A DNA stretch of 64,000 bases. Source: Bdellovibrionales bacterium. GTDB lineage: Bacteria; Bdellovibrionota; Bdellovibrionia; Bdellovibrionales; JAUICD01. The position numbers were made by a program, and so were the translations under genes. The stretch lies in NCBI GenBank assembly GCA_965203275.1, contig OZ241865.1, forward strand, positions 2,464,001 through 2,528,000, in the 5' to 3' direction. Every line of letters begins with the position of its first letter. Positions within the stretch are counted from its first letter, which is position 1. The notes below the pieces were generated by a model that was not told where the DNA came from, did not search any database, and was given only the letters and a program-made list of their open reading frames with translations. Of this stretch, positions 6,837-64,000 are shown piece after piece.

Positions 6837-7331
6837 TTTCTCTAAAAGTAAACCAGCCTCTGGCTGCTTTTGGACATTACTCTGACAGCTTACGCTGTCT
6901 AAAAAGAGCAATGTCTCAAAAGTCCGTTTACTTTTAGTAGGAAGGATATCTTCGTCTCTTGACCACATGTTAAGGAAAAAGAGTTTCAGTTTTTGTTTTT
7001 TTTTATTTTTTTAGATTCTGCGTAACCTCAAACAAGAAGTAATTAGATGGAGGATGGGGCAGAGGGAGACTGGAGGAGTTTGGTTCACTCAAAATGAGCC
7101 ACACCTCTGGTTCACTAAAAGTAAACCAGCCTCTGGCTACTTTTGGACATTGCTCTGACAGCTTACGCTGTCTAAAAAGAGCAATGTCTCAAAAGTCCGT
7201 TTACTTTTAGTAGGAAGGATCCCTTCTTTTTTTAATACCATGTTAGGGAAACAAGATATTTATTTCCCGTTGGCAAAATGGTCATTGTCTCATTTGATTT
7301 TCACTAAAAGTAAACCAACCTATGGTTGTTT
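6837..7331 (+). repeat. Cluster of ~140-bp structured palindromic repeat (2 full copies plus fragments)
   Basis: CTAAAAGTAAAC...GTTTACTTTTAGT outer stem, nested inner hairpin, GGAT(C/A)...ATGTTA(A/G)GGAAA tail. Confidence 0.9.
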
Positions 7332-7696
7332 CCTGAGTTTGACAGTTGATTTGCAAATATGGATATCTTTTTTTTTAGAATGTTTTATTTATAGCTGTTA
7401 GAGGTTTGTAAGTTTTGATTTTTAAATTTTGGTAGAATTTCTAGTGAAGTATGTTTTTGTGAATTTTTATCAATAAAGTCTTGATATAGAAAGCTATACA
7501 TTATTGAGTAAAATGATGATGAAAAATAATGTAAAACATGAGAGGTCTAAAAATAAGGGGGAAAGATGAAGTGTCAGATGAATACATCAATGATCTCCTA
7601 GGTTAAAAAGTTCGCATTGTAGTGGCACAAAATCTTATTGCACTTATAGCCTACTGAAATCTCACAGCTTTATTTTTTCAGGCTGTCAAACTCAGG
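7332..7696. mobile_element. Putative MITE/IS remnant bounded by a perfect 14-bp inverted repeat
   Basis: CCTGAGTTTGACAG (7332-7345) and CTGTCAAACTCAGG (7683-7696); no long ORF between them. Confidence 0.5.
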
Positions 7697-7908
7697 ACTT
7701 ACTTAAGGATGTTCCTATCCGCTTTTTCTTAATTCTTTAAAAGTGCTTGACTTCGCCCCTAAATAAGATATTTTTACAAAGATTATCAAGGTTTACGTTT
7801 ACTTCTAAAAAATAAGAAAAAGCCCTTTTAATCAAAGTTTTAATCTTGTATGTACTTTATTGTTATTTAACTTAAAAATTTAGACCAATTTAAAAGGAGT
7901 ACCAAACA

Positions 7909-8592
7909 ATGAGAAATATATTTTTTTCTTTATCTTTATTTTTGAGCACGATTGGATGTCAAAATTTAAAACCTACTCAAAATACACAAAATACACAAAA
8001 TACAAGCAACACGGATTTAACGCATGCTAGTCGTTACGGCCATATAGAGGTTGTAAAGGAATTGCTAGCGAAAAGGGCTAATGTCAATTATCAAGACGGC
8101 TATGGCTGGACGGCTTTAATGTATGCTAGTCGTTACCGCTATATAGAAATTGTAAAGGCATTGCTAGCGGCCGGAGCCAACGTCAATCTTCAAGACAAAG
8201 ATGGCTGGACGGCTTTAATGTATGCTAGTTATTACGGCCATATAGAGATTGCAAAGGAATTGCTAGCAAACGGAGCTAACGTCAATCTTCAAGATGAAAA
8301 GGGTGGTGATACGGCTTTAATATTGGCTAGTGAGAAAGGCCATATAGAAATTGTAAAGGCATTGCTAGCGGCCGGGGCTAACGTCAATTTTCAAAACAAA
8401 TATGGCGAAAAAGATGGCAAGACGGCTTTAATGGTTGCAAGCATGCATGGCCATATTGAGGTTGTAAAGTTATTGCTAGAAAAGGGTGCTAAAGTCGATC
8501 TTCAAGACAACAGAGGCAGTACGGCTTTAATGATGGCTAGAGATAAAGAACATACTGATATTGTAAGACTCTTAAAAGAGGCGACAGAATAA
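7909..8592 (+). CDS. Ankyrin-repeat protein, probable lipoprotein
   Basis: Signal peptide ending IGC; about 5-6 G-x-TALMxAS..GHxExVKxLL..GA.VN repeats. Confidence 0.92.
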   Translation: MRNIFFSLSLFLSTIGCQNLKPTQNTQNTQNTSNTDLTHASRYGHIEVVKELLAKRANVNYQDGYGWTALMYASRYRYIEIVKALLAAGANVNLQDKDGWTALMYASYYGHIEIAKELLANGANVNLQDEKGGDTALILASEKGHIEIVKALLAAGANVNFQNKYGEKDGKTALMVASMHGHIEVVKLLLEKGAKVDLQDNRGSTALMMARDKEHTDIVRLLKEATE

Positions 8593-8954
8593 TTATCTAT
8601 TTAATAAGAATATACGGGCCGTAGCAAACGGCCTTTATGCTCAATTCAAGTCGGGCTTTAGACTTACTTAAGGATAAAAAACATATCTTATTTCCTTAAC
8701 ATTTCACTCAAAATAAACTGGCCTCTAGCCACTTTTGGATAGCCGTCGGGCTAACTGCCAGAAAACATGCCAGAGGCATGATGCATTTTGAGTGAAATGT
8801 TAAGGAAACAATTCCTTCTAATACCTCCTAACCTGACTGTAAGATTTTCTTTTGCATTTAACAAAAACAATGGTTAAAATACAGTTTATAAAATAAAGTG
8901 AAGCAAATCACATCAAGATCAGAAATATCAAAACAACAAAATAAGGAGATAACA

Positions 8955-62310: not shown

Positions 62311-62327
62311 GCTGCTGTTCCGTTTGG

Positions 62328-62874
62328 TTCACTAAAAGTAAACCAACCTCTGGTTGCTTTTGGGCGATGACCACGATGGCTTTCGCCATCGATAAAATGG
62401 TCATCACCTCAAAAGTCCGTTTACTTTTAGTAGGAGGATCCCTTCGTTTTTTTACACAATGTTAAGGAAAAAGTTCCTTCATCAAGGCTGGCTACCTCAA
62501 AAGCTTGTTCAATTTTAGGAAGGAGGATGTCCTCATTTCTTAACAGCATGTTAAGGAAAAAGATTTCCTTCTGATGTTTGCTCTGACAGCTATCGCTGTC
62601 CAAAAAGAGCAATGCCACAAAAAACTGCTCATTTTGAGTAGAGAGGATATCCTCGTTTTCTAACACGATGTTAGGGAAACAGAGTTTTATTCGCAAACTG
62701 CTTGCTCTTGAGGCAATAAAAGAATTTTTCCCTAACATGGTGTAGAGGAATAAAAAGATCCTCCTCTACTCAAAATAAATGAATTTTCTAGGCAGTTAGC
62801 CTTTGATCGACGGCAGTAGCCGTCGGGCTAACTGCCAGAAAACATGCCAGAGGCATGATTTATTTTGAGTGAAA
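62328..62874. repeat. Inverted doublet cluster of the structured repeat
   Basis: Forward unit, half units, GCTTGCTCTTGAGGCAATAAAAG linker, then reverse unit. Confidence 0.88.
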
Positions 62875-62889
62875 AAAATGCAATAATCT

Positions 62890-64000
62890 TTAGCCTAAGT
62901 TATTTAGTTTTTTCTGTATTTCTCGTATTTTGTTCTCTGTGGACTCTGTGATTTTTGCAATGGTTGAAATATCCATGTTATTTTTAAGCATTTTTAAGAT
63001 AATATCTTGCTTTCCTTCTTCTCTACCTTCTTGCTTTCCTTCTTGCCTACCTTCTTGCCTACCTTCTTCTCTGCCTTTCTCTTGGCCAATCTGAATGCCT
63101 TCCTCTCGGCCAATCTGAATGCCTTTTTTCATAGTTCCTTCTATGGTAAAATCAAATGCTTCCATAATATCTTCTCCTCCTAATTGTTGGGTCACTTCTT
63201 GTGAAGCTGATTGAACAACTTCTTTGTTTAACTGATTATTGTACTGATAAGAATAAGTCATCGCTTTAGTGATGAGTTCTATTATATACTCTTTATCGGT
63301 ACTTTTCGACACTTTTTTCACAAATGAAAAGAATTTTATGAAAAAATCATGCTGTTCCTTTGTGCTTTTTCTACTATCTAAAGACCAAATACCCTGAAAT
63401 AAATGCAAAATAGGACTGATCATTGAACCTTTTGCCTTTGATTCTGTATCATAAACCGATAGATCAAATGGTACATAAGAAAAATTCATAAGGTAAGGAG
63501 CTGTTTCACTCAAAGTGAACTGACCTCTGGTCACTTTCTGGCGATGACCACGACGGCTCACGCCGTCGATAAAATGGTCATCGCCTAGAAAGCCTGTTCA
63601 CTTTGAGTAAGGAGTATCCCTTCCTCTCTTAACAATATGTTAAGGAAACAAGCTGTCTCTTAACATAATGTTAAGGCAAAAATGTTTCATTTGCAAGCTA
63701 CTTGCTCTTAAGGCAATAAAAGGACTTTTTCCTTAACATGATGTAAAGGAATAAAAAGATCCTCCTCTACTCAAAATAAATGGATTTTCTAGGTAGTTAG
63801 CCTTTGATCGACGGTGGTAGCCGTCGGGCTAACTGCCAGAAAACATGCCAGAGGCATGATTTATTTTGAGTGAATCAAACAAGGTTTAAAAAGGCTGATA
63901 TGTTCTCTACACTTTCAAAAAACCTCTTGAAAGACAGGTCATGGACATGGGCTTGAGAAATAGCTTGTTGCTCTTCTTTTTGAGCTTGATTCTTAAGATG
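62890..64000 (-). pseudogene. Rpn/YhgA (transposase_31-like) gene split by a repeat doublet; RpnS-like ORF 62890-63165 intact
   Basis: N-terminal HDLSFKRFF frame at 64000-63875; doublet at 63503-63874; C-terminal FSYVPFDLS...EGRQEG...IAKITES; AGGAGGAG before ATG 63165. Confidence 0.8.
63503..63874. mobile_element. ~370-bp composite (inverted doublet) of the structured repeat within rpn
   Basis: Starts TTTCACTCAAA and ends TTTGAGTGAA; rpn coding sequence on both sides. Confidence 0.75.

What the first reader, a model, noticed from the sequence alone, without database searches (positions are those of the whole stretch)
6837..63874. Dispersed ~140-bp repeat family conserved in structure rather than sequence: covarying three-way junction with C-GNNA-G loop
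Seen: about 35-40 near-complete copies (manual count). On one strand the layout is: tail TTTCCTTAAC-N5-GTT/CAAG..GGATCC; outer stem P1; stem P2; a single A bulge; ~10-11 bp stem P3; a 5-7 nt T-rich bulge; stem P4 capped by C-GNNA-G (GTAA, GATA, GGTA, GAAA, GAGA, GTGA); a side hairpin with invariant CC-AGA-GG; closing AGTGAAA. The stems show compensatory variants. P1: AAAAGTAAAC, CAAAGTGAAC, AAAAGTGGTC, CAAAATGAGC, CAAAATAAAT. P3/P4: GACATTGCTCT/GACAGC, GGCAATCAGCC/CGACGGC, GGTAGCCAGCC, GGCAGTTAGCC, GACAATGACC/CAAAGGC, GGTTGCCAGC/GAAGGC. Side hairpin: TAGCC, TGACC, CAACC, CAGCC, CATGCC, CACACC. Modules occur in different combinations, and some copies have mismatched P1 arms (e.g. ~51131-51238), implying recombination between copies. 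Known: REP/REPIN, Rickettsia palindromic elements and attC sites are structure-based elements; cGNNAg loops are very stable in ssDNA and GNRA loops in RNA. Inference: an undescribed structure-recognised mobile element or repeated ncRNA, acted on by a factor encoded elsewhere. No transposase or integrase is evident in this window.
Basis: partly seen in the sequence, partly recalled or inferred. Interest (0 to 1): 0.88.

Follow-up and report, generated by a model that had tools for sequence, protein, structure and literature searches.

The report
Hairpin repeats tied to four-helix-bundle cassette
A 150-base DNA unit that folds into a three-armed hairpin has multiplied to about 1,300 copies in this small uncultured bacterial genome, and it appears to be the arm of a little-known selfish cassette whose only gene encodes a small four-helix-bundle protein rather than a transposase.

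Summary
The window holds 50 copies, 35 of them near full length. The 2.57-Mb genome holds 1,315, which is 6.5% of the DNA and 25% of non-ORF DNA.

The three-way junction is real. 96% of cells are paired, 24 of 38 pairs show changes on both sides, and 0 of 500 shuffles reach that. No Rfam family matches.

The evidence favours a DNA-level selfish element:
- G·T and A·C mismatches are about equally rare.
- Both strands fold equally well.
- Paralogous empty sites show insertions without target duplications.
- The modules are reshuffled between copies.

No RAYT/IS200-type transposase gene and no reverse transcriptase gene were found in this genome.

- Copies are polar. The TTTCACT "head" faces genes, and "tails" meet in the middle of arrays (94 arrays against 7).
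- At the tails lie heptamer arrays and a multi-copy four-helix-bundle gene (PF05635, the 23S-rRNA-IVS/Avd type). The window holds one such gene, broken by two element insertions.

An unrelated 162-nt repeat accompanies the same gene family in a distant relative. The enzyme that copies the element is unknown.

This scan noted the repeat twice before elsewhere in this genome, and noted four-helix-bundle cassettes in other genomes.

The parts
6837..7255 (+). Array of 2 near full-length units (6837-6985, 7107-7255)
   Evidence: nhmmer places; aligned
8704..8797 (-). Partial unit (profile 6-112: head and core, no tail)
12339..13077 (-). Array of 3 full units and 1 partial (12339-12486, 12599-12745, 12819-12914 partial, 12931-13077). 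Short heptamer runs at 12542-12555 and 12770-12784. A paralogous stretch without the array lies at about 11872-12107.
19322..20524 (+). Array of 5 full units and 1 partial (19322-19477, 19522-19673, 19728-19877, 19931-20079, 20318-20367 partial, 20372-20524). The head abuts the start of the nuoA-like gene at 19280.
   Evidence: ssDNA fold z -10 to -11 on both strands
20906..21014 (-). Partial unit in the opposite direction, closing the 19322-21014 array in the heads-out pattern (+++++-)
26752..28093 (+). Array of 4 full units (26752-26902, 27080-27221, 27307-27455, 27945-28093) with 3 partial units between them
33483..33554 (+). Partial unit forming the left, head-outward arm of the window's four-helix-bundle cassette
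33575..33699 (.). Long array of GGGATC(C/T)-type heptamers upstream of the four-helix-bundle gene
   Evidence: (family D17)
33690..33752 (+). Leader of the four-helix-bundle gene (promoter-like stretch and 5' arm of the hairpin that covers the ribosome-binding site in intact copies), cut off by an inserted unit
   Evidence: sequence compared with the intact copy at G000:C1:1838730-1838842; conserved in 11 copies
33758..33913 (-). Inserted unit that replaces about 29 nt of the cassette, including the ribosome-binding site and start codon
33927..34106 (+). Four-helix-bundle gene (PF05635), codons about 8-67
   Evidence: PF05635 match G000:C1:2497927-2498106; translation
34109..34274 (-). Second inserted unit (16 nt of centre module plus tail to head) inside the gene. 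It replaces 6 nt and leaves no target duplication.
   Evidence: filled against empty paralogue
34275..34374 (+). Remaining 3' part of the four-helix-bundle gene with its stop codon
34395..34430 (.). Heptamer-type run downstream of the gene
34447..34596 (-). Full unit with its tail facing the gene, forming the right, head-outward arm of the cassette
   Evidence: the same arrangement holds in 10 of 11 intact genes
37985..38137 (+). Single unit, left arm of a heads-out array
38360..39370 (-). Six full units, four of them in tandem at 157-nt spacing. The head abuts tRNA-Leu (39379). Heptamer runs at 38318-38338 and 38709-38729.
42726..43234 (.). Heads-out array: 42726-42872 (+), 42880-42960 (+, partial), 43001-43153 (-), 43154-43234 (-, partial)
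47497..48056 (.). Heads-out array: 47497-47651 (+), two partial (+) units, 47908-48056 (-). Heptamer run at 48100-48120.
51089..51709 (-). Array of 3 full units and 1 partial. The copy at 51086-51243 has mismatched P1 arms. Heptamer run at 51391-51412.
62325..62875 (.). Heads-out array: 62325-62475 (+), two partial (+) units, 62724-62875 (-)
63500..63877 (.). Heads-out doublet of 378 nt: 63500-63651 (+) and 63723-63877 (-). It overlaps the 5' end of the Rpn-type ORF at 62890-63561 on the opposite strand.

Best explanation
What it is. The unit is a selfish DNA repeat. It forms the arm, and the far more numerous gene-less derivative, of a foldback cassette. The cassette's only family-specific gene encodes a small four-helix-bundle protein of the 23S-rRNA-intervening-sequence/Avd type (PF05635).

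Layout of the full cassette. One or more units run head to tail. Then come heptamer arrays, then the gene with a hairpin over its ribosome-binding site, then more heptamers, and then units running tail to head. Most loci have lost the gene. They keep a 54-nt centre, a heptamer remnant, or one arm only.

Shown:
- the fold and its covariation
- the polarity, with heads outward
- the gene and heptamers lying at the tails
- insertion into pre-existing sequence without target duplication, often with 6-33 nt of target replaced
- tandem amplification
- reshuffling of modules
- recent copying, seen as identical twin copies

Inferred mechanism:
- Copying is at the DNA level and uses no dedicated transposase.
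- When a strand is exposed, each unit folds into the three-way junction.
- The conserved unpaired motifs and the G..A loop are contact points for a protein. The four-helix-bundle protein is the obvious candidate.
- Host replication or repair, by template switching or break repair, joins a copy into a new site. Abundant Rpn-type nucleases may help.
- Unequal recombination at the conserved motifs makes the arrays and mosaics.
For: Abundance and place. There are 1,315 copies, and 1,223 of them have no overlap with ORFs of 90 aa or more. They fill 25% of non-ORF DNA.

Fold. See the observation check. Both strands fold as ssDNA with z-scores of -5 to -11.

DNA level. G.T and A.C mismatches are about equal in the four cleanly aligned helices (P1, side hairpin, P2, P4; in P3, where one subfamily is out of register, 155 G.T against 279 A.C). 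One-sided changes are rare beside changes on both sides.

Polarity.
- The nearest unit within 200 nt upstream of a gene start points its head at the gene in 122 of 148 cases.
- Downstream of a stop codon it does so in 105 of 149 cases.
- Among mixed arrays, 94 are heads-out, 7 are heads-in and 16 are mixed. Tail-to-tail junctions number 113 and head-to-head 24.
- In the window, 6 of 6 mixed arrays are heads-out.

Centre and heptamers.
- Among the 91 tail-to-tail gaps examined, lengths cluster at 53-55 nt (quartile 54, median 62) and the listed gaps of that size carry one conserved module.
- A core regex for that module finds 63 matches against 0 in the control.
- There are 254 heptamer arrays against 2 in the control, and 158 lie within 80 nt of a tail.

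The gene.
- Eleven copies are about 90% or more identical across the gene and about 170 nt upstream, and about 80-90% over the 3' part of the gene; identity is lower and uneven through the downstream unit.
- 10 of 11 have a tail-facing unit within 120 nt downstream of the stop, against 74 of 1,871 ORFs overall (p about 1e-13).
- 14 of 14 PF05635 matches have heptamers within 400 nt.
- Identity of the protein: PF05635 at E 5e-15, TIGR02436 at 3e-16, PDB 2gsc at 1e-3.

Co-occurrence within the taxonomic family. PF05635 gives 14, 19 and 19 matches in the three genomes that carry the repeat, and 0 and 0 in the two that do not. One of those two belongs to the same genus as a carrier.

Sister species. 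5 of 5 gene loci examined have units within 1.5 kb.

Independent lineage. In G148 the same gene family is preceded by tandem copies of an unrelated, structured 162-nt repeat. Most of the 27 matches, and all the full-length ones, lie at or within about 2 kb of the 8 gene loci; about 7 short ones lie elsewhere.

Insertion. Nine filled-against-empty pairs were inspected, chosen from 18 clusters that have a paralogous empty site. One is an exact insertion. Six replace 6-33 nt of target. One is complex. One is another family inserted into a unit. None shows a target duplication.

Recency and mosaicism. 114 of 740 copies have an identical twin. Median nearest-neighbour identity is 0.95, against 0.71 for random pairs. 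Allele combinations are widely shared between modules.

No rival enzyme.
- PF01797 gives 0 matches in this genome.
- PF00078 gives 0.
- The IS256-family element has unrelated ends and 8-bp duplications.
Against: - No catalytic activity is known for four-helix-bundle proteins, so the gene may be a passenger that merely accumulates at array centres.
- PF05635 is common. 58 of 151 genomes sampled in the order have it, and five genomes have 10 or more copies without this repeat.
- In the third carrier (G004), 0 of 5 gene loci examined have a unit within 1.5 kb, and those genes share no flanks.
- The co-occurrence rests on five related genomes.
- In this genome most units (1,315) lie far from any of the 14 gene copies.
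- The fixed G..A of the P4 loop marks one strand as special. That sits uneasily with a strand-neutral DNA reading.
- Gene calls are crude: longest ORFs of 90 aa or more, chosen greedily. Distances to start codons are therefore approximate.
- No transcript data exist.
- Template switching is an inference from the absence of duplications and the replaced target bases. Only two related junctions show evident microhomology.
Confidence: 0.5

Rival explanations
1. RNA-level element. The tail-first strand, the one with GNNA loops, is the functional form. It would be made by transcription running outward from array centres and through the 3' end of the four-helix-bundle mRNA. It would act as a structured RNA that the four-helix-bundle protein binds, or that RNase III processes, as with rRNA intervening sequences and the Avd-template RNA of diversity-generating retroelements.
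For: - The P4 loop keeps G and A at its ends in 720 of 740 copies while the middle bases vary.
- Unpaired junction motifs are conserved across genera while the stems change.
- Heads-out geometry means that any outward transcript reads the same strand on both arms.
- 10 of 11 genes are followed by a unit in exactly that orientation.
- The Coxiella intervening sequence carrying a gene of this family is excised by RNase III (PMC4990558, abstract).
- Avd belongs to the same fold family (PMC10053308, passages).
Against: - There is no excess of G.U over A.C on either strand.
- 269 of 740 loops are not GNRA.
- Both strands fold equally well.
- There is no Rfam match.
- There is no reverse transcriptase in this genome or in G004.
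- The promoter scan found no enrichment: 1 site against 2.1 expected.
Confidence: 0.2
2. REP/REPIN-like or IS200/IS605-like single-strand transposition by an HUH (Y1) enzyme. The enzyme would have been lost recently from this genome, or would lie in an unassembled part.
For: - The hairpin is conserved in structure.
- There are inverted doublets of about 340 nt.
- No target duplications are seen.
- The sister species G001 has one Y1 gene (PF01797, E 8e-40).
- Genome completeness is estimated at 90%.
Against: - PF01797 gives 0 matches in this single-contig genome.
- The G001 gene has no unit within 1.5 kb and sits beside a resolvase gene.
- Neither a REP-type GTAG/CGTC tag nor a fixed target word was seen at the unit ends and junctions inspected by eye; no motif search was run.
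- Insertions replace target bases.
- No orientation bias along the chromosome could be seen.
Confidence: 0.07
3. Ordinary MITE: a deletion derivative of a DDE transposon, moved in trans by its transposase through terminal inverted repeats.
For: - The P1 arms form a 13-bp inverted repeat.
- 65 copies carry an extra inverted copy of the tail end at the head.
- IS256-family (9 copies) and IS1634-family (3 copies) transposases exist in the genome.
Against: - No target duplication appears at 21 isolated doublets or in the empty/filled pairs.
- The IS256 ends are unrelated and make 8-bp duplications.
- Internal stems covary, which a transposase that binds only the termini would not require.
- The ends of the IS1634 element were not examined.
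Confidence: 0.05
4. The structure is not selected at all. Stems covary because imperfect palindromes are corrected by intramolecular template switching or gene conversion, and the family is inert filler. A milder variant holds that the units persist because the head-proximal side hairpin followed by a T-run serves as a two-way terminator or insulator for neighbouring genes.
For: - G.T and A.C mismatches are symmetric, and intermediates are nearly absent.
- Terminator-like sites number 17 against 2.0 expected in 1.7 kb, all but two of them at the side hairpin and on both strands.
- Heads lie a median 34 nt behind stop codons.
Against: - The same architecture and the same unpaired motifs persist in two genera, although the stems differ.
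- Correction of palindromes does not explain conserved loops, bulges and junctions.
- A terminator role does not explain heads pointing at gene starts (122 of 148), 19 of them within 25 nt of a start codon.
Confidence: 0.13

Closest known systems
ORF-bearing intervening sequences of 23S rRNA (e.g. the Coxiella burnetii helix-45 IVS with the S23p gene; PMC4990558, abstract read)
   Same: A small PF05635/four-helix-bundle gene is enclosed by inverted arms. The element is regarded as selfish, is horizontally acquired, and has no transposase. [quoted passage not shown]
   Different: - Here the cassette lies between protein-coding genes and not in rRNA.
- The arms are 150-nt three-way-junction units plus heptamer arrays.
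- The arms have multiplied about 100-fold beyond the gene.
- RNase III processing is untested.
REP / BIME / REPIN elements with RAYT (PMC3116915 and PMC8266576, abstracts in the search listing)
   Same: Both are high-copy intergenic palindromes and inverted doublets. Both keep the hairpin through paired changes. In both, a family-specific gene is embedded among the repeats.
   Different: - The unit is 4-6 times longer and branched.
- No GTAG/CGTC tag was seen at the ends inspected by eye.
- There is no Y1 transposase in the genome.
- The associated gene has no known catalytic fold and is itself multi-copy.
Bacterial MITEs and long structured repeats such as Correia, ERIC, RUP and Rickettsia palindromic elements (recalled, no call)
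   Same: Size class, intergenic spread, fold-back potential and nesting.
   Different: There are no target duplications and no matching parent IS. Covariation runs throughout the internal stems.
Avd-template RNA module of diversity-generating retroelements (PMC10053308, passages read)
   Same: A four-helix-bundle gene of the same fold family is followed on the same strand by a structured non-coding element.
   Different: There is no reverse transcriptase in this genome, and no template/variable repeat pair.
Integron attC sites (recalled)
   Same: They are recognised by folded single-strand structure and not by sequence, with conserved extrahelical bases.
   Different: Units form ORF-less tandem and inverted arrays on both sides of genes. 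No integrase search was made.
Eukaryotic Foldback transposons (recalled)
   Same: Long inverted arms are built of tandem sub-repeats around a centre that may or may not hold a gene.
   Different: The domain of life is different, there is no sequence relation, and the resemblance is only architectural.

Membership tests
REP/REPIN-RAYT | A Y1 (HUH) RAYT gene in the genome, flanked by the repeats | tested here: not met
   PF01797 gives 0 matches in G000, with 6 candidates scored. G001 has 1 match, but no unit lies in its 3.4-kb locus.
REP/REPIN-RAYT | Short (20-40 nt) imperfect palindrome with a conserved terminal tetranucleotide | tested here: not met
   The unit is about 150 nt and is a three-way junction; its ends are TTTCACT at the head and GTTAAGGAAA at the tail. 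The terminal tetranucleotide was judged by eye only; no GTAG/CGTC search was run.
REP/REPIN-RAYT | Inverted doublets as the replicating unit | tested here: inconclusive
   Heads-out doublets of 338-437 nt exist (21 isolated ones). However, single units also insert on their own.
MITE of a DDE transposon | Target-site duplication | tested here: not met
   None was seen at 21 doublets or in the filled/empty pairs inspected.
MITE of a DDE transposon | Parent IS with matching terminal inverted repeats | tested here: inconclusive
   The IS256-family ends are unrelated. The IS1634-family ends were not examined, and other families were not searched.
IS200/IS605-type palindrome-associated element | TnpA (Y1), and insertion 3' of a fixed short target word | tested here: not met
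   There is no Y1 gene. The left flanks of the insertions differ from one another.
23S rRNA IVS / four-helix-bundle cassette | PF05635 ORF | tested here: met
   There are 14 matches in G000, one of them in the window.
23S rRNA IVS / four-helix-bundle cassette | ORF enclosed by inverted repeat arms | tested here: met
   A tail-facing unit lies downstream of 10 of 11 genes, and tail-facing units lie upstream of 3. In the window the arms are at 33483-33554 (+) and 34447-34596 (-).
23S rRNA IVS / four-helix-bundle cassette | Located in helix 25 or 45 of 23S rRNA and excised by RNase III | tested here: not met
   The window cassette lies between ordinary genes and not in rRNA; the genomic context of the other copies was not examined. 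The rRNA genes of this genome were not examined, and RNase III cleavage cannot be tested with these tools.
Diversity-generating retroelement | Reverse transcriptase with a template/variable repeat pair | tested here: not met
   PF00078 gives 0 matches in G000 and G004.
Any Rfam family | Match at the gathering score | tested here: not met
   Only 4 tRNAs match in the window. Over 19281-20560, at E<=1, there is only a chance miRNA hit outside the units.
Integron attC | Array of ORF-attC cassettes beside an intI gene | not tested
   No integrase search was made. ORF-less tandem arrays speak against it.

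The most novel reading that the evidence does not exclude
The three-way-junction unit is the cis-acting recognition module of a new class of mobile element without a transposase. Its only dedicated gene product, an Avd/IVS-type four-helix-bundle protein, would bind the folded single strand and recruit host replication or repair enzymes to copy it. The heptamer-armed four-helix-bundle cassettes seen across bacteria, the ORF-bearing rRNA intervening sequences, and this 1,300-copy family would then all be forms of one kind of element. 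Genome-specific arms would co-evolve with the protein, as REP sequences do with RAYT.
Probability: 0.2. Interest if true: 0.9.

Novelty: new variant of a known kind. Interest (0 to 1): 0.68.

Why it matters
- A quarter of the non-coding DNA of a small, probably host-associated genome is one structured repeat. Gene order differs almost completely from a same-genus relative, so this family is a likely driver of rearrangement.
- The family gives an unusually rich natural mutagenesis of a three-way junction: 5-9 alleles per helix, freely recombined. It shows which bases must pair and which must stay fixed.
- It links high-copy intergenic repeats to the four-helix-bundle "intervening-sequence" genes. 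The function and mode of spread of those genes have been open since they were found in rRNA genes.
- If the protein binds the folded unit, that question becomes directly testable.

Tried and rejected
- **Expression:** no RNA holder is listed among the 15 runs.
- **Laying contigs:** contigs of four runs were laid on 6001-26000. They stop at the unit borders (for example 6831, 8782, 19351, 20989), and the joints are repeat-graph artefacts. No insertion polymorphism could be read. One sponge-metagenome run holds a strain with about 3-4% differences.
- **Orthologous empty sites in the sister species:** not possible. Genes from the first 20 kb of the window lie scattered over G001.
- **Replichore bias:** GC skew is too noisy to place an origin, and unit orientation shows no chromosome-wide trend.
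- **First orientation test:** grouping by type of intergenic region gave only a weak signal (164 against 206). The strong signal appeared only when the nearest gene end was used.
- **Promoter scan:** no enrichment.
- **Rpn-type nucleases (PF04754, PF12784):**
  - Their 51 ORF pieces are strongly near units in this genome (26 of 28 and 22 of 23, against 30% of all ORFs).
  - Many of them are themselves broken by units, with 230-325 nt replaced.
  - No unit flanks them in the 8 loci examined in G001, G003 and G004.
  - G003 has 16 PF04754 matches without the repeat.
  - They are therefore kept only as possible helpers.
- **PF07282 (TnpB zinc ribbon):** it matches only inside 1,343- and 1,365-aa ORFs.
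- **Pattern scans for the head motif:** 0 matches in viral contigs and 0 in JGI metagenome contigs.
- **PADLOC:** nothing for the four-helix-bundle protein.
- **Retro-copying polarity:** rejected. Head-only and tail-only fragments are about equally frequent in the window (7 and 7), and no reverse transcriptase exists.
- **R-scape:** not available. The count of structure pairs was used instead.
- **Supplementary files:** none were read.

Full report
**Setting**

The window is G000:C1:2464001-2528000 of a single-contig genome of 2,567,810 bp. GC content is 35.1%, estimated completeness is 90% and contamination is 2%. The genes are ordinary bacterial ones: tuf, cysS, citrate synthase, nuo genes, pheS, pilin-like genes, an ankyrin-repeat protein and DNA methyltransferases.

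The nearest named relatives of its CysRS are MAGs labelled Pseudobdellovibrionaceae (47% identity) and Bdellovibrionales; several archaeal MAGs also matched at 35-39%, and records of the window's own genome may have been left out of that search. DNA runs that hold the stretch include runs labelled sponge metagenome.

Yes.

- nhmmer seeded with one copy and iterated once finds 1,315 non-overlapping places. They cover 167.7 kb, 6.5% of the genome. 740 are near full length.
- 50 places lie in the window, 35 of them near full length.
- 1,223 of the 1,315 do not touch any ORF of 90 aa or more. The family fills 25% of the DNA outside such ORFs.
- Copies are clustered in 388 of 1,871 inter-ORF gaps.

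**The fold**

Read from the TTTCACT end ("head"), the unit has these parts in order:

- a 13-bp outer stem P1
- a 5-bp side hairpin whose loop is TCT in 720 of 740 copies
- a long arm (P2 and P3, with a one-base bulge and an A/T-rich internal loop)
- P4, whose tetraloop is TNNC in 720 of 740 copies (GNNA on the other strand)
- a 45-nt "tail" with a GGATC(C) palindrome and a CTTAAC-N5-GTTAAG hairpin

Across the 740 copies almost every stem position exists in two or three Watson-Crick versions.

On a structure-blind MAFFT alignment (35 window copies plus 4 from G001), RNAalifold returns this junction:

- 96.0% of cells pair.
- 24 of 38 pairs have changes on both sides (212 cells).
- 0 of 500 shuffles reach these values, and slid partners give at most 31 such cells.

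Twenty-one distinct copies from G001 and G004 give 96.2%, 27 of 38 pairs and 123 cells. That alignment was fitted to the model, so it leans towards it.

Single copies fold as ssDNA with z-scores of -5 to -11 on either strand. The structural claim therefore stands.

One correction: seven loop variants occur and only 451 of 740 are GNRA. The constraint is G..A, not GNRA.

**Known families**

- Rfam gives only tRNAs at gathering scores. It gives nothing on the units at E<=1 over a stretch that holds five of them.
- The covariance model R1 finds the family in 3 of 151 genomes sampled from the order. These are G000, the same-genus G001, and G004 of another genus in the same family. It does not find it in G003, which is in G004's genus, or in G002.
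- It finds the family in 0 of 150 other genomes sampled from the phylum.
- The head motif has 433 exact matches in G000 and 16 in G001. It has none in viral or JGI metagenome contigs.
- Full-text searches for REPIN/RAYT with compensatory hairpins, for Bdellovibrionota with sponge and repeats, and for PF05635, intervening-sequence proteins and four-helix bundles returned nothing describing this family. Only listings and abstracts were read, apart from passages of PMC10053308 and the abstract of PMC4990558.

**RNA or DNA?**

- In four of the five core helices G.T and A.C mismatches are about equally rare: P1 80 against 89, side hairpin 21 against 25, P2 42 against 37, P4 10 against 17; P3, where one subfamily is misaligned, gives 155 G.T against 279 A.C.
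- One-sided changes are few beside changes on both sides.
- An RNA read from one strand should tolerate G.U and purge A.C. That pattern is not seen.
- Orientation does not follow the transcription of neighbours in a simple way.
- The only strand-specific signal is the G..A of the P4 loop.

I read this as favouring a DNA-level element. An RNA role for the tail-first strand is kept as the main rival.

**Polarity, a new observation**

- The nearest full unit within 200 nt upstream of a gene start points its head at the gene in 122 of 148 cases.
- Within 200 nt downstream of a stop codon it does so in 105 of 149 cases, at a median of 34 nt.
- Arrays that hold both orientations are heads-out in 94 cases, heads-in in 7 and mixed in 16.
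- Tail-to-tail junctions number 113 and head-to-head junctions 24.
- In the window all six mixed arrays are heads-out.
- Where tails meet, gap lengths cluster at 53-55 nt (quartile 54, median 62 of 91) and the listed gaps of that size hold one conserved module. Its core regex finds 63 matches against 0 in the control.
- Isolated doublets measure 338-437 nt.
- Runs of GGGATC(C/T)-type heptamers occur 254 times, against 2 in a reversed-sequence control. 158 of them lie within 80 nt of a tail, compared with 49 near a head.

**The gene at the tails**

Among gaps faced by two tails, 5 of 39 hold a roughly 100-aa ORF of one family. That family has 11 copies.

- They are about 90% or more identical across the gene and about 170 nt upstream, somewhat less (about 80-90%) over the 3' part of the gene, and lower and uneven through the unit that follows.
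- The protein is a four-helix-bundle protein: PF05635 (23S_rRNA_IVP) at E 5e-15, TIGR02436 at 3e-16, and PDB 2gsc at 1e-3.
- PMC10053308 (passages read) states that PF05635 resembles Avd of diversity-generating retroelements.
- 10 of the 11 genes have a unit with its tail towards them within 120 nt of the stop codon. Only 74 of 1,871 ORFs overall do so, giving a binomial p of about 1e-13.
- All 14 PF05635 matches have heptamers within 400 nt.
- The leader contains an inverted repeat that covers the GGAGG ribosome-binding site.

The window holds one such cassette at 33483-34596:

- a left arm, then a long heptamer array, then the leader
- a unit inserted where the ribosome-binding site and start codon should be
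- codons 8-67 of the gene
- a second inserted unit
- the rest of the gene with its stop codon
- heptamers, then a tail-facing right arm

**Does gene and repeat go together elsewhere?**

- Within the taxonomic family, PF05635 gives 14, 19 and 19 matches in the three carriers and 0 and 0 in the two non-carriers.
- In G001, 5 of 5 gene loci examined have units within 1.5 kb.
- In G004, 0 of 5 do, and its genes share no flanks.
- The gene family is widespread. 58 of 151 genomes sampled in the order have it, and five further genomes have 10 or more copies without this repeat.
- I examined one of these, G148. Its genes sit in a conserved unit of about 520 nt and are preceded by up to five tandem copies of an unrelated, GC-rich, structured 162-nt repeat. 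Most of the repeat's 27 matches, including all the full-length ones, lie at or near the eight gene loci; about 7 short ones lie elsewhere. The leader again hides the ribosome-binding site in a hairpin.
- In G113 short tandem arrays flank the genes.
- After I had found this link, a look-up showed that other agents of this scan had noted four-helix-bundle genes enclosed by inverted short-repeat arrays in many phyla. One case had intergenic repeats derived from such cassettes. Those notes are unchecked leads that agree with what I see.

**Mobility**

Multi-copy sequences serve as natural empty sites. 18 unit clusters have a paralogous site without the unit, and nine were inspected.

- One is an exact insertion (G000:C1:1827544-1827692).
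- Six replace 6-33 nt of the target. One of these is the window's 34109-34274, where 6 nt are replaced.
- One is complex.
- One is a different 143-nt element inserted into a unit.
- None shows a target duplication, and none is seen at 21 isolated doublets.
- The inserted piece runs from a variable point 9-16 nt inside the centre module, through the tail, to a sharply defined head.
- Units also lie inside older units, always in the same orientation and mostly at the P4 loop or the side-hairpin loop. There are 54 nested pairs, and 138 of 905 heads are preceded by CTCTG.
- Units also form tandem arrays with periods of 157, about 203 and about 205 nt.
- 114 of 740 copies have an identical twin. 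Median nearest-neighbour identity is 0.95, against 0.71 for random pairs.
- Alleles of different helices occur in many combinations, for example 24 of 35 for side hairpin x P3 and 33 of 72 for P1 x P4. Recombination between copies is therefore frequent.

**Candidate enzymes**

- No Y1/HUH gene (PF01797) and no reverse transcriptase (PF00078) is found in G000.
- G001's single IS200-like gene has no unit nearby.
- A nine-copy IS256-family element has unrelated ends and 8-bp duplications. One copy has landed in a unit's P4.
- Two families of Rpn-type PD-(D/E)XK nucleases (PF04754, PF12784; 51 ORF pieces) are strongly enriched next to units. Many of them are broken by units, and the link is not kept in other genomes.
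- I keep them only as possible helpers. That rests on the recalled report that E. coli RpnA promotes RecA-independent recombination.

**Most likely mechanism**

The following are shown: fold, covariation, polarity, the cassette with gene and heptamers at the tails, insertion without duplication, amplification and reshuffling.

The following are inferred: the unit is recognised as a folded single strand through its invariant unpaired motifs. The four-helix-bundle protein is the recognising factor. Host replication or repair does the joining, which would explain replaced target bases and the absence of duplications.

I give this 0.5, because the protein's role is untested and the gene could be a passenger.

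The rivals are:

- an RNA-level role of the tail-first strand (0.2)
- structure without selection, or a terminator role (0.13). The side hairpin plus T-run gives most of the 17 terminator-like sites found against 2.0 expected.
- HUH-type transposition with the enzyme unseen (0.07)
- a DDE-type MITE (0.05)

**Novelty**

As a kind, structured intergenic repeats and ORF-bearing intervening sequences are known.

New here are the branched 150-nt unit, its scale, its strict heads-out polarity, and its tie to four-helix-bundle cassettes outside rRNA. I found none of these in print in the four searches named above.

The same repeat family was reported by this scan from two other windows of this genome, where it was read as REP/REPIN-like. 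I confirm the repeat and its selfish character. I replace the REPIN comparison with the four-helix-bundle cassette as the closest relative.

Noticed in passing
window 48136-50877 (-): A 913-aa ORF has a signal-peptide-like N-terminus, a domain of about 290 aa, and then about nine tandem 68-aa helix-turn-helix repeats with weak Pfam hits to transposase and regulator HTH families. It belongs to a 16-member family in this genome. A paralogue (G000:C1:26960-28996) carries a different HTH repeat on the same N-terminal domain, and the ankyrin-repeat family appears, by eye, to carry a similar N-terminal domain. It looks like a secreted multi-HTH DNA-binding effector family.
   Followed up: partly
window 54702-58569 (-): Three tandem paralogous genes (390, 396 and 413 aa, 83-89% alike at the DNA level) have no Pfam match.
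   Followed up: no
window 20090-20310: A second repeated module: a T-rich stretch ending in ...AGATTCTGCGTAAC, followed by a GC-rich palindrome of about 120 nt. It recurs at the tail side of many units elsewhere in the genome. Rfam gives only a chance miRNA hit here.
   Followed up: partly
G000:C1:103886-104028 and at least 6 other places (outside the window): A different element of about 143 nt is inserted at the same point of the unit, between the side hairpin and P3, in at least seven copies. A paralogous unit-free copy of that element also exists.
   Followed up: partly
window 62890-63561 (-) and 20625-20924 (-): These are fragments of YhgA-like (PF04754) Rpn-type nuclease genes. The genome holds 51 ORF pieces of two Rpn families, many split by units with 230-325 nt of the gene replaced.
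   Followed up: yes
window 1-20000 against G001: Genes that are neighbours here lie scattered over the 2.9-Mb genome of a same-genus relative, at 68-81% DNA identity. Only the tRNA-tuf pair and the nuoA-nuoH pair stay together. Units of the two species are about 80% alike, which is as conserved as the coding genes.
   Followed up: partly
G000:C1:214394-215629 and 8 other copies (outside the window): An IS256-family insertion sequence has near-identical copies and 8-bp target duplications. One copy is inserted in the P4 stem of a unit.
   Followed up: yes
window 29739-37880: A cluster of three N6/N4 DNA methyltransferase-domain genes, one fused to an Mrr-type nuclease domain, lies next to the disrupted four-helix-bundle cassette.
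   Followed up: no
L075:75-880 (G148:C1:769974-770776): Five tandem copies of a GC-rich 162-nt structured repeat lie directly upstream of a four-helix-bundle gene in a distant member of the order. The last part of each repeat equals the 5' arm of the hairpin that covers the gene's ribosome-binding site.
   Followed up: partly
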